From assembly GCA_016204695.1 (NCBI GenBank), contig JACQKD010000014.1, forward strand, positions 88,170-152,169: 64,000 bases of DNA, in the 5' to 3' direction. The translations under genes and the position numbers were made by a program. The DNA is from Candidatus Kaiserbacteria bacterium (GTDB lineage: Bacteria; Patescibacteriota; Minisyncoccia; Phycocordibacterales; UBA918). Of this stretch, positions 20,076 through 25,402 are shown one piece after another. Below the pieces are notes generated by a model. It searched no databases. It was not told where the DNA came from and saw nothing but the letters and a program-made list of their open reading frames with translations. The stretch's first letter is position 1. Each line of letters opens with the position of its first letter.

Positions 20076-20212
20076 AGGATCAGTATACCTTGCGGATACT
20101 TTTCTTCTCCGCCAGCCGGCGGATCGAAAAGATATCTCGCAAGGTCTGCGAACCCCCTGTATCCTACAAAAACATAGTCGCGTGACGCTTCGCGTCCCGC
20201 TCCTTGTTTTTG

Positions 20213-20284
20213 TGGACCCGAGGGGATTCGCACCCCTGACCCCTGCAATGCGAATGCAGTGCTCTACTCCTGAGCTACGGGCCC
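20213..20284 (-). tRNA. tRNA-Ala (anticodon CGC)
   Basis: GGGCCCG TA GCTC AGGAGTA GAGC A CTGCA TTCGCAT TGCAG GGGTC AGGGG TGCGAAT CCCCT CGGGTCC A; G3:U70 present. Confidence 0.9.
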
Positions 20285-20373
20285 GGCAACGCCTCATATG
20301 GTATCCGACAGGACGGGAAAAAGGAAGTTGCTGGCGGCATCTGTCGGTTTTGGCTACAATACACCATGCATCT

Positions 20374-20445
20374 CCTCCCGTCGTTCAACGGATAGGACGC
20401 GAGTTTCCGGAACTCGTAATGTCAGTTCGATTCTGGCCGGGAGGA
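20374..20445 (+). tRNA. tRNA-Arg (anticodon CCG)
   Basis: CCTCCCG TC GTTC AACGGATA GGAC G CGAGT TTCCGGA ACTCG TAAT GTCAG TTCGATT CTGGC CGGGAGG A. Confidence 0.8.
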
Positions 20446-20459
20446 CAAGAGCTTCATTG

Positions 20460-20530
20460 TGGACCTACGGGGAGTCGAACCCCGGCCTCCTCCATGCCAT
20501 GGAGGCGTTATACCGCTTAACTATAGGCCC
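20460..20530 (-). tRNA. tRNA-Ala (anticodon GGC)
   Basis: GGGCCTA TA GTTA AGCGGTA TAAC G CCTCC ATGGCAT GGAGG AGGC CGGGG TTCGACT CCCCG TAGGTCC A; G3:U70. Confidence 0.85.
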
Positions 20531-20570
20531 TCGAGTACGGGTCCGTGGAATTGTCTTCAACTCTACCTGA

Positions 20571-21116
20571 ATGCAATATCTCGCACAAGAACACCGCATG
20601 TTTGCAGAGGAAGCTGTCCACAGGACATACGAAAATACTTCACTTGTATCTTATACTGTGCCTAACGATCAGCATTTTGTGATGAATATCCTCTCATACT
20701 TCGACTTGAATAAGACGGCGGGCGGCTTCCGGGAACTCGGAGGCAGTGCGGCACTGGACTATAAGATGAAAGCCGAGCCGCCAGCCGCTCCGGTACCGGA
20801 AGCGCCGGAGACAGTAAAACCGCAAGCGCGCCCGATGCCCCTCTTTGAACAGCTCGTGCTGTACGCCGGCGTGATCATCGGCGTACTCTTCAGCTCAACA
20901 GTTAGACAATTCCAGGATGGAGCAGTCGCATTGCCAAAACTCGGTTTTGCCTCCGTACTGATTGCGGCGGTCGTGTCGCTGATCATCATCCCCATCGTGT
21001 TCGACAAGCTCAAGGTCAATCCCGACGCGCCGTTTATCATCCGCTTCGGCCTCTTCGTCCAACACGGCGCATTCTGGCACATCCTCCTTGTCGCGATCGG
21101 CAAGGCAATCGTTTGA
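20571..21116 (+). CDS. Hypothetical membrane protein
   Basis: C-terminal TM helices; start uncertain. Confidence 0.35.
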   Translation: MQYLAQEHRMFAEEAVHRTYENTSLVSYTVPNDQHFVMNILSYFDLNKTAGGFRELGGSAALDYKMKAEPPAAPVPEAPETVKPQARPMPLFEQLVLYAGVIIGVLFSSTVRQFQDGAVALPKLGFASVLIAAVVSLIIIPIVFDKLKVNPDAPFIIRFGLFVQHGAFWHILLVAIGKAIV

Positions 21117-21199
21117 ACCGGTACATAACGCCCGGGTAGCAAAGACAGAAAAAATATGTATAGTTGAAGGGAACAAAAGCAGTCCATAGGACTGTTTTT

Positions 21200-21272
21200 G
21201 GGCCCCTAGCTCATCTGGTAGAGCACCGGTTTTGCACTCCGGAGGCGAGCGGTTCGAGTCCGCTGGGGTCCA
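21200..21272 (+). tRNA. tRNA-Ala (anticodon TGC)
   Basis: GGGCCCC TA GCTC ATCTGGT AGAGC A CCGGT TTTGCAC TCCGG AGGCG AGCGG TTCGAGT CCGCT GGGGTCC A; G3:U70. Confidence 0.9.
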
Positions 21273-21292
21273 CATACGGTGTAGGATGTAGG

Positions 21293-23015
21293 GGTATCCG
21301 CTTAAGGCGGGACAATTGGGTGTCGGTCATGTACGCTGAAGGACTGAATTCCACCACGAGTTCAGTCACCCTTCAGAGGACCGACCGACATGAAATTTTG
21401 GGCCAAAAGTCTTCGCATTGTCAACGCTTTTTGTGACAACGCCGCGCAGAGCATCCGACACGTGGCGCATCAGACCGGGTTCTCCAAGAGCAGTGTGCAT
21501 CGCCTCAAACAGGCGATGGAACGCCGAGACCGCCACCCAGAGTCGTGGTTGTGGGAAACGGAAGAAGGCCACCGTTGGCTCCTCCGTCTGGTGGTCGCCG
21601 CCCTTTTTACGTTCGGTCTCACACGCGGTGTCGGGGCGGAAACCCTCAGCGAGTTTTTTGGCCGTCTGCGCCTCGAGGCACATATCGGGTCTTCGCCCAG
21701 CGCCTTGCGGAGGATGATGGAGGCGTTGGAGGCCGTGCTTCTGGAGACGGCAGGAACATGGGAGCACGAGGGGGTAGCTGCCGGAGAGATCAGACCAATC
21801 ATCGGCGCGGTGGACGAAACCTTCTTGGAACGCATGATGCTGGTGTTCATGGACCTTGCCAGTGGCTACTTGGTGGCTGAAGAGGTTGCCGCGGATCGGA
21901 GTTATGACACCTGGTACGCTGTGGTCACGGCACGCCTGGCGACGCTGGGGGTTGGTGTGAGGTACATGGTGAGTGACCGGGCCAAGGCACTGATCAAACT
22001 GGCGGACACGGGGCTGGCGTGCTTGAGCGTCCCGGACTTCTTCCACCTTCTCCATGACCTGACCAAGAGCTATTCGCTGGCCATTGTCAGTCGGCTGAGG
22101 CACGCGCAGCAGGCCTTGCAGCACGCGCAGGAGCGTCTTGCCGCGTGCCAAGAGGCTCATCCAGACGGTGCGGACGTGCAACACGTGCACGCCTTGGTGG
22201 AGGTGCATGAAGCGGAAGTCCAGCGCTGGCAAAACGTGCACAGTGACTACCGGCACCACCTCGAGCACCTGTCGCTCATCATGCATCCATGGCGCTTAGG
22301 AGGCTCGACACCCCAGACGTCACACGAAGTGGAAGACCTCTTACAGACAGAGATCGCGGCCCTGGAAACCTTGGTCGCAACGCAGGGGGTGCCCATCAAG
22401 AAGCACGCCTTGGAGAAGGTCCGCAAGCAGCTCGCGGGCGTCGCCGCCCTGGTGGACGTGTGGTGGCAGGAGGTGTGGCACGATGTGCAGTCTCAGGTTG
22501 CCCTGACGTCGCAGTGGCGGGGCTGGGTTGCAGAGTGTGTGCTGCCGCTCATGTATTGGCAGGAACAACTGGCGCGCACGCGTTGCCCACGACGCAAAGC
22601 CAAGCTCTTCGAGGCGTTGCAGACGGTTGAGGAGGCCATGGAAACGCATCCCCTCACCCGCCAGTTGGCCCCCGAGGTCCTGGCGGGGTGGAAAGTCTGG
22701 GCGGCCGAGCATGCCAGAGGCTTTCAGCGGGCCTCCTCGGCGGTTGAAGGGCGCAACGGTGCGCTGCCGCAGTTGCACCACAACCAGCGCGGCTTGCCCA
22801 AACGCCGCTACAAGGTGTGGACGGTGTTGCACAACTTCGACTGTCGTGCCGCGGACGGGAGCACGCCCGCCTCACGGTTTTTCCGGCACGAATTTCCGGA
22901 CCTCTTTGAGACGGTGCTCTCAAAAATCGATGACGTACCACGATCTCGTCAACGCCACCAGGCTCTGGCGATAAGTATTTGAAGCTATAGAATGTCCCGC
23001 TTTAAGCGGATACCC
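21293..23015 (+). mobile_element. Insertion sequence, ISL3-family-like (1.72 kb, single transposase, 22-bp terminal inverted repeats, 9-bp target-site duplication GGATGTAGG)
   Basis: IR-L GGTATCCGCTTAAGGCGGGACA (21293-21314) matches the reverse complement of IR-R (22993-23015) with one mismatch. Flanking direct repeat GGATGTAGG at 21284-21292 and 23016-23024. GC content is higher than surrounding DNA. Confidence 0.75.
21390..22982 (+). CDS. DDE transposase (ISL3-like)
   Basis: N-terminal HTH; catalytic-region signatures AVDETF...MDL, MVSDRAKAL...VPDFFHLLHDL (DrFHv-like) and AVEGRNGALPQLHHNQRGL (EGxN...RG). Confidence 0.7.
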   Translation: MKFWAKSLRIVNAFCDNAAQSIRHVAHQTGFSKSSVHRLKQAMERRDRHPESWLWETEEGHRWLLRLVVAALFTFGLTRGVGAETLSEFFGRLRLEAHIGSSPSALRRMMEALEAVLLETAGTWEHEGVAAGEIRPIIGAVDETFLERMMLVFMDLASGYLVAEEVAADRSYDTWYAVVTARLATLGVGVRYMVSDRAKALIKLADTGLACLSVPDFFHLLHDLTKSYSLAIVSRLRHAQQALQHAQERLAACQEAHPDGADVQHVHALVEVHEAEVQRWQNVHSDYRHHLEHLSLIMHPWRLGGSTPQTSHEVEDLLQTEIAALETLVATQGVPIKKHALEKVRKQLAGVAALVDVWWQEVWHDVQSQVALTSQWRGWVAECVLPLMYWQEQLARTRCPRRKAKLFEALQTVEEAMETHPLTRQLAPEVLAGWKVWAAEHARGFQRASSAVEGRNGALPQLHHNQRGLPKRRYKVWTVLHNFDCRAADGSTPASRFFRHEFPDLFETVLSKIDDVPRSRQRHQALAISI

Positions 23016-23036
23016 GGATGTAGGATGGTGTAGGTT
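23016..23036 (+). repeat. 24-bp (TGTAGG)x3-type site, copy 1 (split by the IS; other half at 21277-21292)
   Basis: Reconstituted pre-insertion site GGTGTAGGATGTAGGATGGTGTAGG. Related copies at 23770-23791 and 25417-25442. Confidence 0.6.
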
Positions 23037-23054: not shown

Positions 23055-23267
23055 TTGACTGGACAGACATACAAAAAGAATACAAAGGGCTCTGGGTGGC
23101 CGCTCAAGGAAGATGAACAGACTGTAGTAGGGAGCGGCAAGACTCTTGCGGAGGCCCTGGAAAAAGCGAAGGAAGCCGGATATGAGAAACCCATTGTTGT
23201 CTGCACGTCAGAAAGGGTCCTGCCGTTTATAGGCGGCCCCCAATTAGTGACGGGAAAAGAAGAGTAG
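23055..23267 (+). CDS. DUF2188-like small protein (TTG start)
   Basis: KGSGWPLKEDEQTVVGSGKTLAEALEKAKEAGYEKPIVV resembles the DUF2188 pattern (GWaVk.eG....tqaeAie.A...A). Confidence 0.45.
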   Translation: MTGQTYKKNTKGSGWPLKEDEQTVVGSGKTLAEALEKAKEAGYEKPIVVCTSERVLPFIGGPQLVTGKEE

Positions 23268-23347: not shown

Positions 23348-23489
23348 TCTTTTCTCATGCTATAATCCGTTCAATTTGTACCTTCTAAACTGACGGGGAG
23401 AAAGTCCGGTGCCCTTTTTGATCTTCAGGGAGCTACGTCACTTTCCTCCCCCTCCATAGCCACCAACACTTGGTAGCTACGGCGGGGGC

Positions 23490-23705
23490 GTGAGTAAGGT
23501 CGACCGCTTCCCGAATTATCAACAAAAGTTCCGAATGTGTATGAGTATAAATAAAACTACTACTCAAACCGGGCAAAAAGCTCCTATTTCTGGTCAATAT
23601 CGGCCAGTTGGTACGCGCGACGAAATCACCCTCTCGAAGGGGGATCGTGTTCCACCGTACCAGAAGGAAGCCAAGAAGTTTGTTCTGGTTGATAAAACCA
23701 AATAG
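23490..23705 (+). CDS. YjzC-like small protein (hypothetical)
   Basis: GQKAPISGQYRPVGTRDEITLSKGDRVPP resembles the YjzC family pattern. Start may be the internal Met at 23544. Confidence 0.4.
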   Translation: MSKVDRFPNYQQKFRMCMSINKTTTQTGQKAPISGQYRPVGTRDEITLSKGDRVPPYQKEAKKFVLVDKTK

Positions 23706-23769
23706 CTTCTGACGCCCAGAATCCCCGTCAGTTTCGAGAGTACAACTCTTATTTTCTATAAGGCTCAGT

Positions 23770-23791
23770 GGGGATGTAGGTCGGTGTAGAC
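23770..23791 (+). repeat. 24-bp (TGTAGG)x3-type site, copy 2
   Basis: GGGGATGTAGGTCGGTGTAGAC lies 16 nt upstream of the SIR2-like ORF. Confidence 0.55.
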
Positions 23792-23806
23792 TTATACAAG
23801 TTCGTA

Positions 23807-24862
23807 TTGTTAAAAATTGGAAATCTGAATGAGGGTATGTCGAATCCACTTATAATTTTCGGAGCAGGCGCGTCCTTTGACTATTCTGCGTTTGGTAACA
23901 TCGCTCCACTTACTAATGATCTCGTCTCAGAACGTTTTCTTCATCACGATCTTTTAGAAAAATATCAAGGTGCCAACGATCTGTTATCTGATATGGTGCA
24001 CCAGGTCCATACACGTAATCGCGCATTTGAGACCGTCTTGAGCGAGATGAGAGAACGTGCGGCCCATTCTCCGCAACTTCTCAGTCAATTCGCAGCACTT
24101 GAATTTTATTTAAAAGCTCTTTTCAAGCGGATCTCAACTCCCTCGGACCTAACAAGAAGAGCGTATCAGGTAAACAATTATCGGATTATAAATAATCGTA
24201 TACATGCGTACTCTGGTGGTAGAGCAAATATTATATCTTTTAATTACGACACTCTCTTTGAGCATACTCTTGGTGCAAAAGCGCCAAAAAACATGCTGGA
24301 ATATATTTCTGGTGATATTAAAATCTTCAAACTGCATGGTTCCCACGACTGGCTTCATATACAACCAAGATCGCTAATGGGGGGTGATCCAAAGACAGAA
24401 GCAGAGGATATTGACTGGTACTTGGGTCGTCCAGATTTTATTGAGAATATTAGAGCTAGAAATGACACAAGTCCTTACCATGAACTAGAGCTCCACGAAC
24501 GTCCGAATAGAAATCGATATGCTTGGTTTCCAGCGATCGCTGTCCCTTTAAATAGTAAAGACAGATATGTTTGTCCTCCGAGGCATATCCAAGCGCTCGA
24601 ACAGGTACTGCCAAAGATCGATCGGGTTCTTATTATTGGTTGGAAAGCAGGAGATCAGCTTCTTCTTGAAATGCTTTCAAGACACTTGCCTAACTTCGGC
24701 TACAAGTTGCTTGTGATCTCAGGAACTGTAGATGGTGCGCAAAAGGTTGCCGAAGTTGTTCGAGATAAACTTACTGCCCATGCAGGAAAAATTGAGGCAC
24801 GTGGCGGTGGATTCTCAGATTTCGTAGGTAGCGATATAAGTCATAGCTTTTTTGCCGATTGA
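23807..24862 (+). CDS. SIR2-like (SIR2_2/DHS-like NAD-binding) domain protein, standalone; candidate anti-phage NADase
   Basis: IIFGAGASFD (GAGxS nucleotide-binding loop), ISFNYDTLFE, KLHGSHDW. AT-rich gene in a mobile island; track ORF starts at TTG 23807, first ATG at 23837. Confidence 0.7.
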   Translation: MLKIGNLNEGMSNPLIIFGAGASFDYSAFGNIAPLTNDLVSERFLHHDLLEKYQGANDLLSDMVHQVHTRNRAFETVLSEMRERAAHSPQLLSQFAALEFYLKALFKRISTPSDLTRRAYQVNNYRIINNRIHAYSGGRANIISFNYDTLFEHTLGAKAPKNMLEYISGDIKIFKLHGSHDWLHIQPRSLMGGDPKTEAEDIDWYLGRPDFIENIRARNDTSPYHELELHERPNRNRYAWFPAIAVPLNSKDRYVCPPRHIQALEQVLPKIDRVLIIGWKAGDQLLLEMLSRHLPNFGYKLLVISGTVDGAQKVAEVVRDKLTAHAGKIEARGGGFSDFVGSDISHSFFAD

Positions 24863-24962
24863 TTTATCATTACCAGGAGACACTTGACGACCTTGTATGC
24901 TTTGGTACTATATAGATACAAGTGGCTTCGGCCTCACCCCCGCAAGGGGGAGAAAATGCAGG

Positions 24963-24993
24963 AAAGCCGTCAGAACAAGTTTCTGACGGCTTT
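24963..24993. terminator. Bidirectional hairpin between convergent SIR2-like and MazF-like genes
   Basis: AAAGCCGTCAGAA / CAAGT / TTCTGACGGCTTT overlaps the last codons of the minus-strand toxin. A GC hairpin CCCCC GCAA GGGGG sits at 24934-24953. Confidence 0.5.
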
Positions 24994-25353
24994 TCTCAAT
25001 TCTGCGAATATTTCCTTGTCGAGAAAACCGACCTTTTCGACCAAACGCCGCGTATCGATCACTCGAAGTTGTGAGAGGAGCGCTTTCGCCTCCTTGTCTT
25101 GAACTATCCCCACAGAGATACGGAGTCGATGGGGATGCGGAGAGGTGGTTAGCGGGATAACCGCACAGGTTTCTGCTCCAAACGAGCGTATGATCACCAC
25201 CGGCCGAAGAAATGATTTACCGCTCCCGTCCTGTTCCGATCCGACATTCACGCCGAGTCGACACCACCATATTTCGCGAACCGTATAGAGACGAGATTCT
25301 TCACCATGGGTCTGCTTTTTCAGCGTATTCCACGTATCGAAATCTTTTGTCAT
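24970..25353 (-). CDS. MazF/PemK-family endoribonuclease toxin (type II TA), no adjacent canonical antitoxin
   Basis: REIWWCRLGVNVGSEQDGSGKSFLRPVVIIR...CAVIPLTTSPHP...IDTRRLVEKVGFLDKEIFAELRKAV aligns motif-for-motif with the MazF/NdoA family (GSEQxG, RPxxVI, xPxTT, IDxxRL). Confidence 0.75.
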   Translation of the reverse strand: MTKDFDTWNTLKKQTHGEESRLYTVREIWWCRLGVNVGSEQDGSGKSFLRPVVIIRSFGAETCAVIPLTTSPHPHRLRISVGIVQDKEAKALLSQLRVIDTRRLVEKVGFLDKEIFAELRKAVRNLF

Positions 25354-25402
25354 GAAGTTAGGGAAATCATAGCATGGACATTTTATGATGGTATGATGAG
25401 TC

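What the first reader, a model, noticed from the sequence alone, without database searches (positions are those of the whole stretch)
21293..23015. Intact ISL3-like insertion sequence with a 9-bp target duplication next to tRNA-Ala(TGC)
A 1.72-kb element has 22-bp terminal inverted repeats (GGTATCCGCTTAAGGCGGGACA, one mismatch) and flanking direct repeats GGATGTAGG. It encodes a single 530-aa DDE transposase carrying ISL3-like signatures (DE...D..., DrFHv-like VPDFFHLLHDL, EGxN...RG). The element is noticeably more GC-rich than its surroundings. It begins 21 nt after tRNA-Ala(TGC) and has inserted into a 24-bp (TGTAGG)x3 site, splitting it. Intact ends and a target duplication suggest recent and possibly active transposition.
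Basis: seen in the sequence. Interest (0 to 1): 0.55.

Follow-up and report, generated by a model that had tools for sequence, protein, structure and literature searches.

The report
Intact insertion sequence of unnamed family
This is a real, intact 1.7-kb jumping gene beside a tRNA gene, but its transposase belongs to a large family now labelled only "DUF6399, function unknown", which is a distant cousin of the ISL3 family and not a member of it.

Summary
There is a 1,724-bp element at 21292-23015 with 23-nt terminal inverted repeats (one mismatch), identical flanking repeats and one intact 530-aa ORF. It lies 18 nt downstream of tRNA-Ala(UGC) and has higher GC than its host (0.61 vs 0.53).

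Two corrections:
- **Target duplication.** It is 8 bp (GGATGTAG), not 9. Nine independent insertions of relatives show perfect 8-bp duplications abutting GG(G/C)...CCC ends. The ninth matching G is the first base of the repeat.
- **Family.** The transposase matches neither the Pfam nor the NCBIfam ISL3 model. It carries an N-terminal winged helix instead of the ISL3 zinc finger, plus Pfam DUF6399.

Evidence that it is a DDE transposase:
- D142, D196, D216-x-x-H219 and E453 are invariant in relatives down to 25% identity.
- A confident AlphaFold model (pLDDT 89.8) shows an RNase-H-like core split by a ~230-residue all-helical insertion.
- The best structural matches are Hermes (hAT) and ISCth4 (IS256).
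- Profile comparison aligns the catalytic motifs in register with true ISL3 transposases (P 5e-5). That is weaker than ISL3 against IS256 (P 1e-8).

The family is large (2,180 clusters at 50% identity), multi-copy in some genomes, and named "transposase" by a source only once among the hits listed. No empty site was found, and activity is untested.

The parts
21200..21273 (+). tRNA-Ala(UGC). This is context: the element starts 18 nt downstream of it.
   Evidence: ARAGORN; Rfam tRNA model, 59.2 bits.
21284..21291 (.). Left copy of the 8-bp target-site duplication, GGATGTAG.
   Evidence: The same octamer directly abuts the other end. The 8-bp length comes from nine independent insertions of relatives.
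21292..21314 (+). Left terminal inverted repeat, 23 nt: GGGTATCCGCTTAAGGCGGGACA. It has two conserved blocks, positions 1-8 and 12-23.
   Evidence: It is identical to the consensus of 89 related loci. Conserved columns are listed.
21322..21389 (+). Conserved three-helix stem-loop in the leader. The 3' strand of its basal helix ends at the start codon, and the GAGGA ribosome-binding site lies in an internal loop.
   Evidence: MFE -36.5 kcal/mol, z -4.1. On 48 loci, 89.5% of cells are paired against 24-47% when the partners are slid; 10 pairs show compensatory changes; 0 of 500 shuffles reach the observed value.
21390..22982 (+). Transposase gene, 530 aa, intact.
   Evidence: ORF. Full-length alignment to more than 2,800 homologues. 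All family-invariant residues are present.
21405..21527 (+). N-terminal winged helix-turn-helix (aa 6-46), the presumed repeat-binding domain.
   Evidence: Pfam HTH_IclR, E 7e-6, present in 77 of 77 close relatives. Profile hits to Z-alpha/Lrp-type winged helices in the PDB.
21798..22046 (+). First part of the RNase-H-like catalytic core (aa 137-219): strands b1-b5 with D142 (21813-21815), D196 (21975-21977) and the D216-x-x-H219 motif (22035-22046).
   Evidence: Invariant residues. AlphaFold secondary structure. Aligned in register with ISL3 D156, D210 and D231-x-F-H234. Weak Pfam rve hits.
22038..22721 (+). All-alpha-helical insertion domain (aa 217-444) that splits the catalytic core.
   Evidence: AlphaFold model, pLDDT mostly above 90 in this stretch. 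Foldseek matches Hermes and ISCth4, which have the same layout.
22530..22961 (+). Region matched by Pfam DUF6399 (aa 381-524). It contains the catalytic-glutamate motif SSAVEGRNG, with E453 at 22746-22748.
   Evidence: DUF6399, E 9e-56. E453, G454, R455 and N456 are invariant. The motif aligns to the ISL3 S-N-G-x-x-E-G-x-N motif, P 0.005.
22993..23015 (-). Right terminal inverted repeat, 23 nt, with one mismatch to the left repeat.
23016..23023 (.). Right copy of the 8-bp target-site duplication, GGATGTAG.

Best explanation
The element at 21292-23015 is an intact, single-gene DDE insertion sequence. It belongs to a large and largely unannotated family whose transposase is catalogued only as 'HTH + DUF6399'.

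**Shown:**
- Conserved 23-nt terminal inverted repeats.
- An 8-bp target duplication, both here and across the family.
- Multi-copy behaviour in other genomes.
- An RNase-H-like core with invariant D142, D196 and E453, plus a D-x-x-H motif, interrupted by an all-helical insertion domain.

**Inferred:**
- The N-terminal winged helix binds the inner block of each repeat (TAAGGCGGGACA). The core cleaves at the terminal GGG/CCC and joins the ends to target phosphates staggered by 8 bp, and repair of the gaps gives the duplication.
- By analogy with its nearest relatives (ISL3, IS256), it may move through an excised circular intermediate. This rests on my own knowledge of those families and was not tested.
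- In this sub-clade a conserved leader hairpin that ends at the start codon probably damps translation. That would matter for read-through from the tRNA gene just upstream. The role is inferred.

**Classification.** It is a family-level lineage within the ISL3 / IS256 / hAT-like group of transposases. ISL3 is its nearest sequence relative, but it is not an ISL3 member.

**Origin.** The GC excess and a 95%-identical copy in an unrelated metagenome suggest recent horizontal arrival in this genome, which is labelled Candidatus Kaiserbacteria.
For: **The element itself**
- Repeats and flanking duplication.
- Both junctions, with identical flanks, are reproduced in two separate read-set assemblies (L001, L002).

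**Repeats and duplications across the family**
- The same repeat consensus appears in 89 loci, including the clades at 41% and 33% protein identity.
- Perfect 8-bp duplications occur in L004/5, L018, L021, L024, L025, L028, L033, L035 and L105. The chance of one is 1.5e-5 per site.
- One long-read gammaproteobacterial genome holds at least 15 copies.
- Most homologues sit on contigs of 1.7-2 kb, as expected for a repeat that breaks assemblies.

**The protein**
- Family size: 2,180 clusters at 50% identity with E <= 1e-3.
- Invariant D142, E164, W175, D196, D216, H219, E453-G-R-N in 37 sequences of 25-57% identity.
- AlphaFold: pLDDT 89.8, pTM 0.84, with a b1-b2-b3-a-b4-a-b5 core followed by a helical insertion.
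- Foldseek: Hermes E 3.5e-4, ISCth4 E 2.5e-3, then Mos1 and retroviral integrases.
- hhalign against 8 verified ISL3 transposases: score 47, P 4.7e-5, with catalytic residues in register. The C-terminal motif alone gives P 0.005.
- Controls: shuffled or reversed ISL3 alignment P 0.08-0.96; single IS256, IS5, IS1, IS3 and IS200 sequences P > 0.06; an 8-sequence IS256 profile P 0.019.

**Origin**
- GC content.
- Nearest copy: 95.2% identical over 1,724 bp with no gaps.
Against: - No empty site was recovered, so the duplication in this particular copy is inferred from the family rule.
- The target lies in a short TGTAGG-rich repeat, which raises the chance of a fortuitous flank match.
- Only 10 of 80 scorable loci (nine independent insertions) show an 8/8 duplication. 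I attribute the rest to chimeric flanks in short-read assemblies; for example, L053 and L054 share a left flank but not a right one. That explanation is not proven. A finished Acaryochloris plasmid copy also lacks a duplication.
- The loop carrying E453 has low confidence in the model (pLDDT about 48-56).
- Foldseek TM-scores are low (0.23-0.30).
- hhalign probability for ISL3 is only 68%.
- Divergent members also give weak hits to IS256_Zn_var, ICE_Mbov_0401 and ISLre2, so the nearest known family is not settled.
- ISfinder could not be searched, so the family may already have a name there.
- There is only one copy in the window, and no evidence of transposition in this genome.
Confidence: 0.8

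Rival explanations
1. It is a true, merely divergent member of the ISL3 family. In that case it would simply be filed as a new ISL3 subgroup.
For: - The catalytic motifs align in register with ISL3.
- 4 of 37 divergent relatives give weak hits to Pfam DDE_Tnp_ISL3 (best E 0.006) and to NCBIfam transpos_ISL3 (best E 1.7e-5).
- It has an 8-bp duplication and repeats of about 23 nt starting with GG. A verified ISL3 element has the same features: L127 has the repeat GGTTCATCCGGCTAAAGCG... and the duplication CTAATGGT.
- A helix-turn-helix just before the core aligns with the ISL3 one.
Against: - The window protein and its 77 close relatives do not match either ISL3 model.
- The conserved N-terminal cysteines of ISL3 (C40, C43, C79) have no counterpart. 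A winged helix takes their place.
- The insertion domain is about 230 residues against roughly 130 in ISL3.
- The profile score against ISL3 (47) is well below that of ISL3 against IS256 (72), and those two are separate families.
Confidence: 0.15
2. Its true nearest relatives are hAT or IS256/Mutator-type transposases rather than ISL3. The ISL3 signal would then only reflect motifs shared by the whole group.
For: - The top three Foldseek hits are Hermes (hAT), aligned over about 530 columns, followed by ISCth4 (IS256).
- hAT elements also make 8-bp duplications (my own knowledge).
- NCBIfam IS256_Zn_var is hit by 4 of 37 members, with a best E of 1.7e-6.
Against: - The PDB holds no ISL3 structure that came up in this search, so Foldseek could not have chosen ISL3.
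- A profile search of PDB sequences finds neither Hermes nor ISCth4.
- hhalign against an 8-sequence IS256 profile gives only P 0.019, with the first aspartate out of register.
Confidence: 0.12
3. The flanking GGATGTAG(G) repeats are part of a pre-existing TGTAGG-rich tandem site and not a duplication made on insertion.
For: The site is repetitive (TGTAGGA TGTAGGA TGG TGTAGG). GGATGTAGG also occurs twice elsewhere in the window. No empty site was found.
Against: The repeats abut both ends exactly and have exactly the 8-bp length that the family produces at nine unrelated sites.
Confidence: 0.07
4. The insertion is an assembly or binning artefact: a soil-type repeat wrongly joined into a candidate-phyla-radiation contig.
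For: - The element is richer in GC than its surroundings.
- Its relatives are mostly from soil metagenomes and non-CPR genomes.
- Short-read contigs of this family often have chimeric flanks.
Against: - Both junctions are reproduced identically in two separate run-level assemblies.
- The two flanks share the duplication, so they come from one site.
- Another CPR genome from the same groundwater project (Peregrinibacteria, L037) carries a fragment of a relative.
Confidence: 0.03

Closest known systems
ISL3 family insertion sequences (for example ISPpu12, ISKox3, ISKpn25; Pfam DDE_Tnp_ISL3, NCBIfam NF033550)
   Same: - One transposase gene.
- Repeats of about 23-24 nt starting with GG, and an 8-bp duplication. 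L127 is an in-session example.
- The same motif order, in register: DE(f) ... D ... D-x-F-H ... S-x-x-x-E-G-x-N ... G.
- A helix-turn-helix directly upstream of the core.
- A helical insertion between the D-x-F-H motif and the glutamate.
   Different: - No match to the family models.
- No N-terminal zinc-finger cysteines; a winged helix takes their place.
- The insertion domain is about 100 residues longer and the protein is 530 aa against about 400-430.
- The profile-profile score is lower than between ISL3 and IS256.
Hermes, a eukaryotic hAT-superfamily transposase (PDB 2bw3, 8sjd)
   Same: - It is the best structural match (E 3.5e-4, probability 1.00, about 530 aligned columns).
- The RNase-H-like core is split after strand b5 by a large all-helical insertion.
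- It has a [C/D]-x-x-H motif after the second aspartate, and hAT elements make 8-bp duplications (both from my own knowledge).
   Different: - No detectable sequence similarity.
- TM-score is only about 0.3.
- Hermes has a BED zinc finger instead of a winged helix, short repeats and a eukaryotic host (my own knowledge).
IS256 family (ISCth4 transposase, PDB 6xg8)
   Same: - Second-best structural match (E 2.5e-3).
- DDE core with a helical insertion and a C-x-x-H motif.
- 8-9 bp duplications (my own knowledge).
- Weak NCBIfam IS256_Zn_var hits in 4 of 37 relatives.
   Different: hhalign against an IS256 profile gives only P 0.019, with the first aspartate not in register. There is no Pfam Transposase_mut hit among the 25 families most often matched.
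Pfam DUF6399 (PF19936)
   Same: The protein is a clear member (E 9e-56, aa 381-524). All 77 close relatives and all 37 divergent relatives match it.
   Different: Pfam lists it as of unknown function. Here it proves to be the end of the insertion domain plus the last catalytic segment, carrying the invariant E-G-R-N motif, of a DDE transposase.

Membership tests
ISL3 family | Transposase matches Pfam DDE_Tnp_ISL3 (PF01610) at its gathering score. | tested here: not met
   No hit for the window protein at E <= 1. The model is absent from the 25 families most often matched by the 77 close relatives. Only 4 of 37 divergent relatives hit it, with a best E of 0.006.
ISL3 family | Transposase matches NCBIfam NF033550 (transpos_ISL3). 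| tested here: not met
   No hit for the window protein at E <= 1. 4 of 37 divergent relatives hit it, best E 1.7e-5; the cut-off for this model was not shown.
ISL3 family | N-terminal zinc finger (paired conserved cysteines). | tested here: not met
   C40, C43 and C79 are invariant in 8 verified ISL3 proteins. No cysteine is conserved in the first 130 residues of the DUF6399 family, which has an HTH_IclR-type winged helix there.
ISL3 family | Catalytic motifs D, D, D-x-F-H and E-G-x-N present in the ISL3 order and alignable to ISL3. | tested here: met
   hhalign gives P 4.7e-5 for the full length, 2e-4 for the N-terminal core and 5e-3 for the C-terminal motif, with residues in register. Controls are negative. 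Probability is only 68%.
ISL3 family | 8-bp target duplication and terminal inverted repeats of about 15-40 bp starting with GG (family features from my own knowledge, with one in-session example). | tested here: met
   8-bp duplications at nine related insertions and here. 23-nt repeats starting GGG. The verified ISL3 element L127 has a 24-nt repeat starting GG and an 8-bp duplication.
DDE (RNase-H-like) transposases | RNase-H-like fold with an invariant acidic triad on b1, after b4 and on a later helix. | tested here: met
   D142 lies on b1 (strand 137-145) and D196 directly after b4 (strand 190-195); E453 is invariant. The E453 loop has low model confidence. Foldseek hits are all DDE transposases or integrases. 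Weak rve hits in 44 of 77 and 12 of 37 relatives.
Insertion sequence (autonomous) | Conserved terminal inverted repeats, a target duplication, multiple copies at unrelated sites, and its own transposase gene. | tested here: met
   Actual movement was not tested.
IS256 family | Sequence or profile similarity to IS256 transposases. | tested here: not met
   hhalign against 8 IS256 proteins gives P 0.019 and probability 2.5%. A single IS1310 sequence gives P 0.18. Only sub-threshold IS256_Zn_var hits, in 4 of 37 relatives.
hAT superfamily | Sequence similarity to hAT transposases; BED zinc finger; hAT C-terminal dimerisation domain. | tested here: inconclusive
   Fold-level match to Hermes. There is no sequence-level match to Hermes in the PDB, and no hAT domain among the Pfam hits listed. 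A hAT profile was not built.
Other IS families with NCBIfam models (ISKra4, ISLre2, ISAzo13, ISH6, IS1380, IS701, IS4, IS5, IS66 and others) | Match to the family's NCBIfam model. | tested here: not met
   No IS model matches the window protein at E <= 1. In divergent relatives there are only scattered weak hits: ISLre2 in 2, IS21 in 2, IS3 in 2, IS481 in 1.

The most novel reading that the evidence does not exclude
DUF6399 proteins are the transposases of a widespread insertion-sequence family that has not been named. It would form a separate deep branch beside ISL3 and IS256, and its fold is closest among solved structures to the eukaryotic hAT transposase Hermes. It could therefore be a prokaryotic counterpart of hAT elements, for which no bacterial relative is generally accepted (my own knowledge). 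This copy would also record a recent transfer of such an element into a candidate-phyla-radiation bacterium.
Probability: 0.3. Interest if true: 0.6.

Novelty: new variant of a known kind. Interest (0 to 1): 0.38.

Why it matters
- **Annotation.** It gives a function to a Pfam 'unknown function' domain. Thousands of genes now labelled hypothetical, DUF6399 or 'transcriptional regulator' are in fact transposases of one insertion-sequence family, with defined ends (GGGTATCC...CGGGACA) and an 8-bp duplication. That improves genome annotation and the handling of repeats in metagenome assembly.
- **Transposase evolution.** It adds a lineage to the ISL3 / IS256 / hAT-like group, which bears on how these transposases are related.
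- **This genome.** The copy marks a probable horizontal acquisition next to a tRNA gene in a small-genome CPR bacterium.
- **What it is not.** It is not a new kind of mobile element. The mechanism is the ordinary DDE one.

Tried and rejected
1. **Empty site.** Look-ups of neighbouring proteins found nothing on record: the 181-aa ORF at 20571-21116, and the 351-aa ORF at 23807-24862 from two alternative starts. A pattern for the reconstructed empty site had no match in the metagenome collection.
2. **First structure prediction.** A shallow alignment (77 sequences, all at least 67% identical to the query) gave an unusable core, with pLDDT below 50. I replaced it with a 115-sequence alignment reaching down to 32% identity.
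3. **pWW0 as a source of an ISL3 sequence.** The first 50 kb held none. Instead I wrote an ISL3-like pseudo-consensus from memory and used it only as bait. The proteins it retrieved are annotated ISL3 transposases, and those are what I used.
4. **RNAalifold on the leader.** It did not return the hairpin. I tested the hairpin explicitly and it held, but it is absent from distant clades, so it is specific to this sub-clade.
5. **Sigma-70 promoter for the transposase.** None passed the scan. Only an antisense site did. My GGGACA-17-TACGCT idea fails that consensus test and is not claimed.
6. **Literature.** No paper in the library mentions DUF6399. Searches on ISDol1, on ISL3/IS256/hAT insertion domains and on IS in Patescibacteria gave nothing useful. 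The Siguier 2014 review is not held.
7. **Phage families and PDB sequences.** No phage family hit and no PDB hit for the single sequence. A profile search of PDB sequences found only the N-terminal winged helix and coiled-coil noise.
8. **Duplications in short-read contigs.** Most lack one; I judged their flanks chimeric rather than counting them as evidence against a duplication.
Full report
**1. The observation**

The sequence is as described.
- The 22-mer GGTATCCGCTTAAGGCGGGACA sits at 21293-21314. Its reverse complement, with one mismatch, sits at 22993-23014. No shuffle of the window produced such a pair.
- The repeat extends one base further to 23 nt (21292-21314 / 22993-23015, 96% complementary).
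- GGATGTAGG occurs at 21284-21292 and 23016-23024.
- A single 530-aa ORF runs from 21390 to 22982.
- tRNA-Ala(UGC) ends at 21273.
- GC is 0.611 in the element and 0.53 in the rest of the window.
They count the terminal C at 23015 but not its partner G at 21292, which is why a 9-bp duplication seemed to fit.

**2. Is it a real insertion?**

Two run-level assemblies from the same project (L001, L002) contain the identical element with identical flanks on both sides. The two flanks share the duplication, so they belong to one site. The exact protein is on record as 'hypothetical protein HY416_04270, Candidatus Kaiserbacteria bacterium' on a 152,889-bp contig. No other copy is present in the window. 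No empty site was found.

**3. What relatives show about ends and duplication**

- The protein has more than 2,800 homologues, nearly all on contigs of 1.7-2 kb. That is the signature of a repeat that breaks assemblies.
- I fetched 36 loci from genomes and 80 from metagenomes.
- In 89 loci both ends could be located. The consensus is GGGTATCCnCnTAAGGCGGGACA, with two conserved blocks (positions 1-8 and 12-23).
- The same ends occur in the clade at 41% protein identity (GGCTACCCACTTAAGGCGGGACA). They also occur in an Acaryochloris plasmid copy at 33% identity (GGCTACCAGCATAAAGCGGGAAAA).
- One long-read gammaproteobacterial genome holds at least 15 copies on long contigs.
- Perfect 8-bp duplications abut the GG(G/C)...CCC ends at nine independent sites:

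| Locus | Duplication |
|---|---|
| L004/5 | GAGCTGCA |
| L018 | GTCTCCAG |
| L021 | GGCTTGCA |
| L024 | AACGGGAC |
| L025 | GAAAATTG |
| L028 | GTTTGTAC |
| L033 | CCAACTTA |
| L035 | CACAAGGC |
| L105 | GAGCGATG |

- The family rule is therefore 8 bp. In the window this gives element 21292-23015 and duplication GGATGTAG at 21284-21291 / 23016-23023.
- Most short-read metagenome contigs show no duplication. I attribute this to chimeric flanks; for example, L053 and L054 share the left flank but not the right. This remains a caveat, as does a finished Acaryochloris plasmid copy with no duplication.

**4. The protein**

*Family models.*
- Pfam finds DUF6399 (aa 381-524, E 9e-56), an N-terminal HTH_IclR-type winged helix, and a weak rve hit at aa 150-202. 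DDE_Tnp_ISL3 is not matched.
- No NCBIfam insertion-sequence model matches at E <= 1.
- Annotated plasmid copies (Crinalium, Acaryochloris, Thiodictyon) are all named 'DUF6399 domain-containing protein'. One metagenomic relative is called 'transposase family protein'.
- The exhaustive search counts 2,180 clusters at 50% identity with E <= 1e-3.

*Conserved residues.* In 37 relatives at 25-57% identity the invariant residues are G60, G82, S102, D142, E164, W175, D196, D216, H219, Y389, R447, S450, E453, G454, R455, N456 and N482.

*Structure.*
- AlphaFold with a diverse 115-sequence alignment gave pLDDT 89.8 and pTM 0.84.
- Strands 137-145, 149-155 and 161-167, helix 172-186, strand 190-195, helix 199-208 and strand 212-215 form an RNase-H-like core. 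D142 is on the first strand and D196 comes just after the fourth.
- An all-helical insertion spans 217-444. The segment carrying E453 follows and is modelled with low confidence.
- Foldseek against the PDB returns Hermes (hAT; E 3.5e-4 to 7.5e-4), then ISCth4 (IS256; E 2.5e-3), then Mos1 and retroviral integrases. TM-scores are low (0.23-0.30).

**5. Relation to ISL3**

I retrieved eight annotated ISL3 transposases from plasmids: ISPpu12, ISKpn25, ISEc53, ISKox3 and ISAeme19 relatives, plus three unnamed ones.

| Comparison (hhalign) | Score | P | Note |
|---|---|---|---|
| DUF6399 family vs ISL3 | 47 | 4.7e-5 | probability 68%; D142, D196 and D216-x-F-H219 align to ISL3 D156, D210 and D231-x-F-H234 |
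| C-terminal segment alone vs ISL3 | 24.8 | 0.005 | SSAVEGRNG aligns to S-N-G-x-x-E-G-x-N |
| Reversed or shuffled ISL3 alignments | 10-22 | 0.08-0.96 | control |
| Single IS256, IS5, IS1, IS3, IS200 sequences | 17-21 | > 0.06 | control |
| DUF6399 family vs 8-sequence IS256 profile | 27 | 0.019 | first aspartate out of register |
| ISL3 vs IS256 | 72 | 9.6e-9 | yardstick: two recognised separate families |

So ISL3 is the nearest sequence relative I could test. The distance, however, exceeds that between two recognised families.
- Weak sub-threshold hits in divergent members point the same way but not exclusively: ISL3 4/37, IS256_Zn_var 4/37, ICE_Mbov_0401 6/37, ISLre2 2/37.
- ISL3's conserved N-terminal cysteines are absent.
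- A verified ISL3 element (L127) has a 24-nt repeat, GGTTCATCCGGCTAAAGCG..., and an 8-bp duplication. Its ends loosely resemble those found here.

**6. How it most likely works**

*Shown:* the ends, the duplication length, the catalytic residues and the fold class.

*Inferred:*
- The winged helix binds the inner repeat block.
- The DDE core cleaves at the terminal GGG/CCC and inserts with an 8-bp stagger.
- A circular intermediate is possible by analogy with ISL3 and IS256 (my own knowledge; not tested).
- Nothing here shows current activity. The intact ORF and ends, and a copy 95.2% identical with no gaps in another metagenome, are merely compatible with it.

**7. The leader**

- Between the left repeat and the ATG lies a three-helix stem-loop (21322-21389; MFE -36.5 kcal/mol, z -4.1).
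- On 48 related leaders, 89.5% of cells are paired against 24-47% when the partners are slid. Ten pairs show compensatory changes, and 0 of 500 shuffles reach the observed value.
- The basal helix ends at the start codon. Sequestration of the start region, especially in transcripts that read in from the tRNA gene, is a reasonable reading but is untested.
- The hairpin is absent from distant clades.

**8. Verdict**

- This is a correct sighting of an intact insertion sequence. The duplication is 8 bp.
- 'ISL3-like' holds only as a distant relationship. The element is best described as a member of an unannotated DUF6399 transposase family within the ISL3 / IS256 / hAT-like group.
- The mechanism is ordinary and the annotation value is moderate.
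- ISfinder could not be consulted, so the claim that the family is unnamed remains provisional.

Noticed in passing
window 21322-21389: A conserved three-helix stem-loop lies in the transposase leader. The 3' strand of its basal helix ends at the ATG. It shows covariation across 48 related loci, but it is absent from the clades at 41% and 33% identity.
   Followed up: yes
window 21395-21424, minus strand: A sigma-70-like site (TTGACA, 18 nt, CAAAAT; 10 of 12 matches) points antisense across the start of the transposase gene. It could drive an antisense RNA. Its conservation was not checked.
   Followed up: no
window 20212-21273: Four tRNA genes lie within 1.1 kb: Ala(CGC) on the minus strand, Arg(CCG) on the plus strand, Ala(GGC) on the minus strand and Ala(UGC) on the plus strand. 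All three alanine isoacceptors are together, and the element sits just after the last one.
   Followed up: no
window 23400-25400: A low-GC stretch (0.42-0.48) lies just downstream of the element. It contains a 351-aa ORF (23807-24862) with a sub-threshold SIR2-like hit (E 0.005). The 70-aa ORF at 23055-23267 has a weak DUF5678 hit. This may be a small acquired island next to the tRNA cluster.
   Followed up: partly
L017-L044 (uncultured Gammaproteobacteria MFD00032.bin.3.53 and related bins): This long-read genome holds at least 15 copies of a relative at 41% identity. They include a 1,920-bp variant with an extra ~200 bp just inside the left repeat, carrying a C6T5...G6 hairpin. Several copies are interrupted by other insertions (L033, L034, L040).
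   Followed up: partly
L037 (Candidatus Peregrinibacteria, NC_groundwater project), 3-314: A second candidate-phyla-radiation genome, apparently from the same groundwater project as the window's genome, carries the last 104 codons of a relative (74% identity) at a contig end.
   Followed up: no
L118:9-133: Two left-repeat-like sequences lie about 50 nt apart. This looks like one copy inserted into the leader of another.
   Followed up: no
L053/L054 and L078/L087: Pairs of short-read metagenome contigs share one flank of the element but not the other. This shows that flanks of this repeat are often joined chimerically, which explains why most such contigs lack a duplication.
   Followed up: partly
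L127:652-1962 (Pseudodesulfovibrio plasmid, annotated ISL3 family): The terminal repeat of this verified ISL3 element (GGTTCATCCGGCTAAAGCG) matches the DUF6399-family repeat (GGGT-ATCCGCTTAAGGCG) at 14 of 19 positions with one gap. It makes an 8-bp duplication, CTAATGGT.
   Followed up: partly
L143:432-2182 (Acaryochloris marina S15 plasmid): This is a 1,751-bp copy from a finished genome with recognisable family repeats but no target duplication. The record holds three matching places in all.
   Followed up: partly
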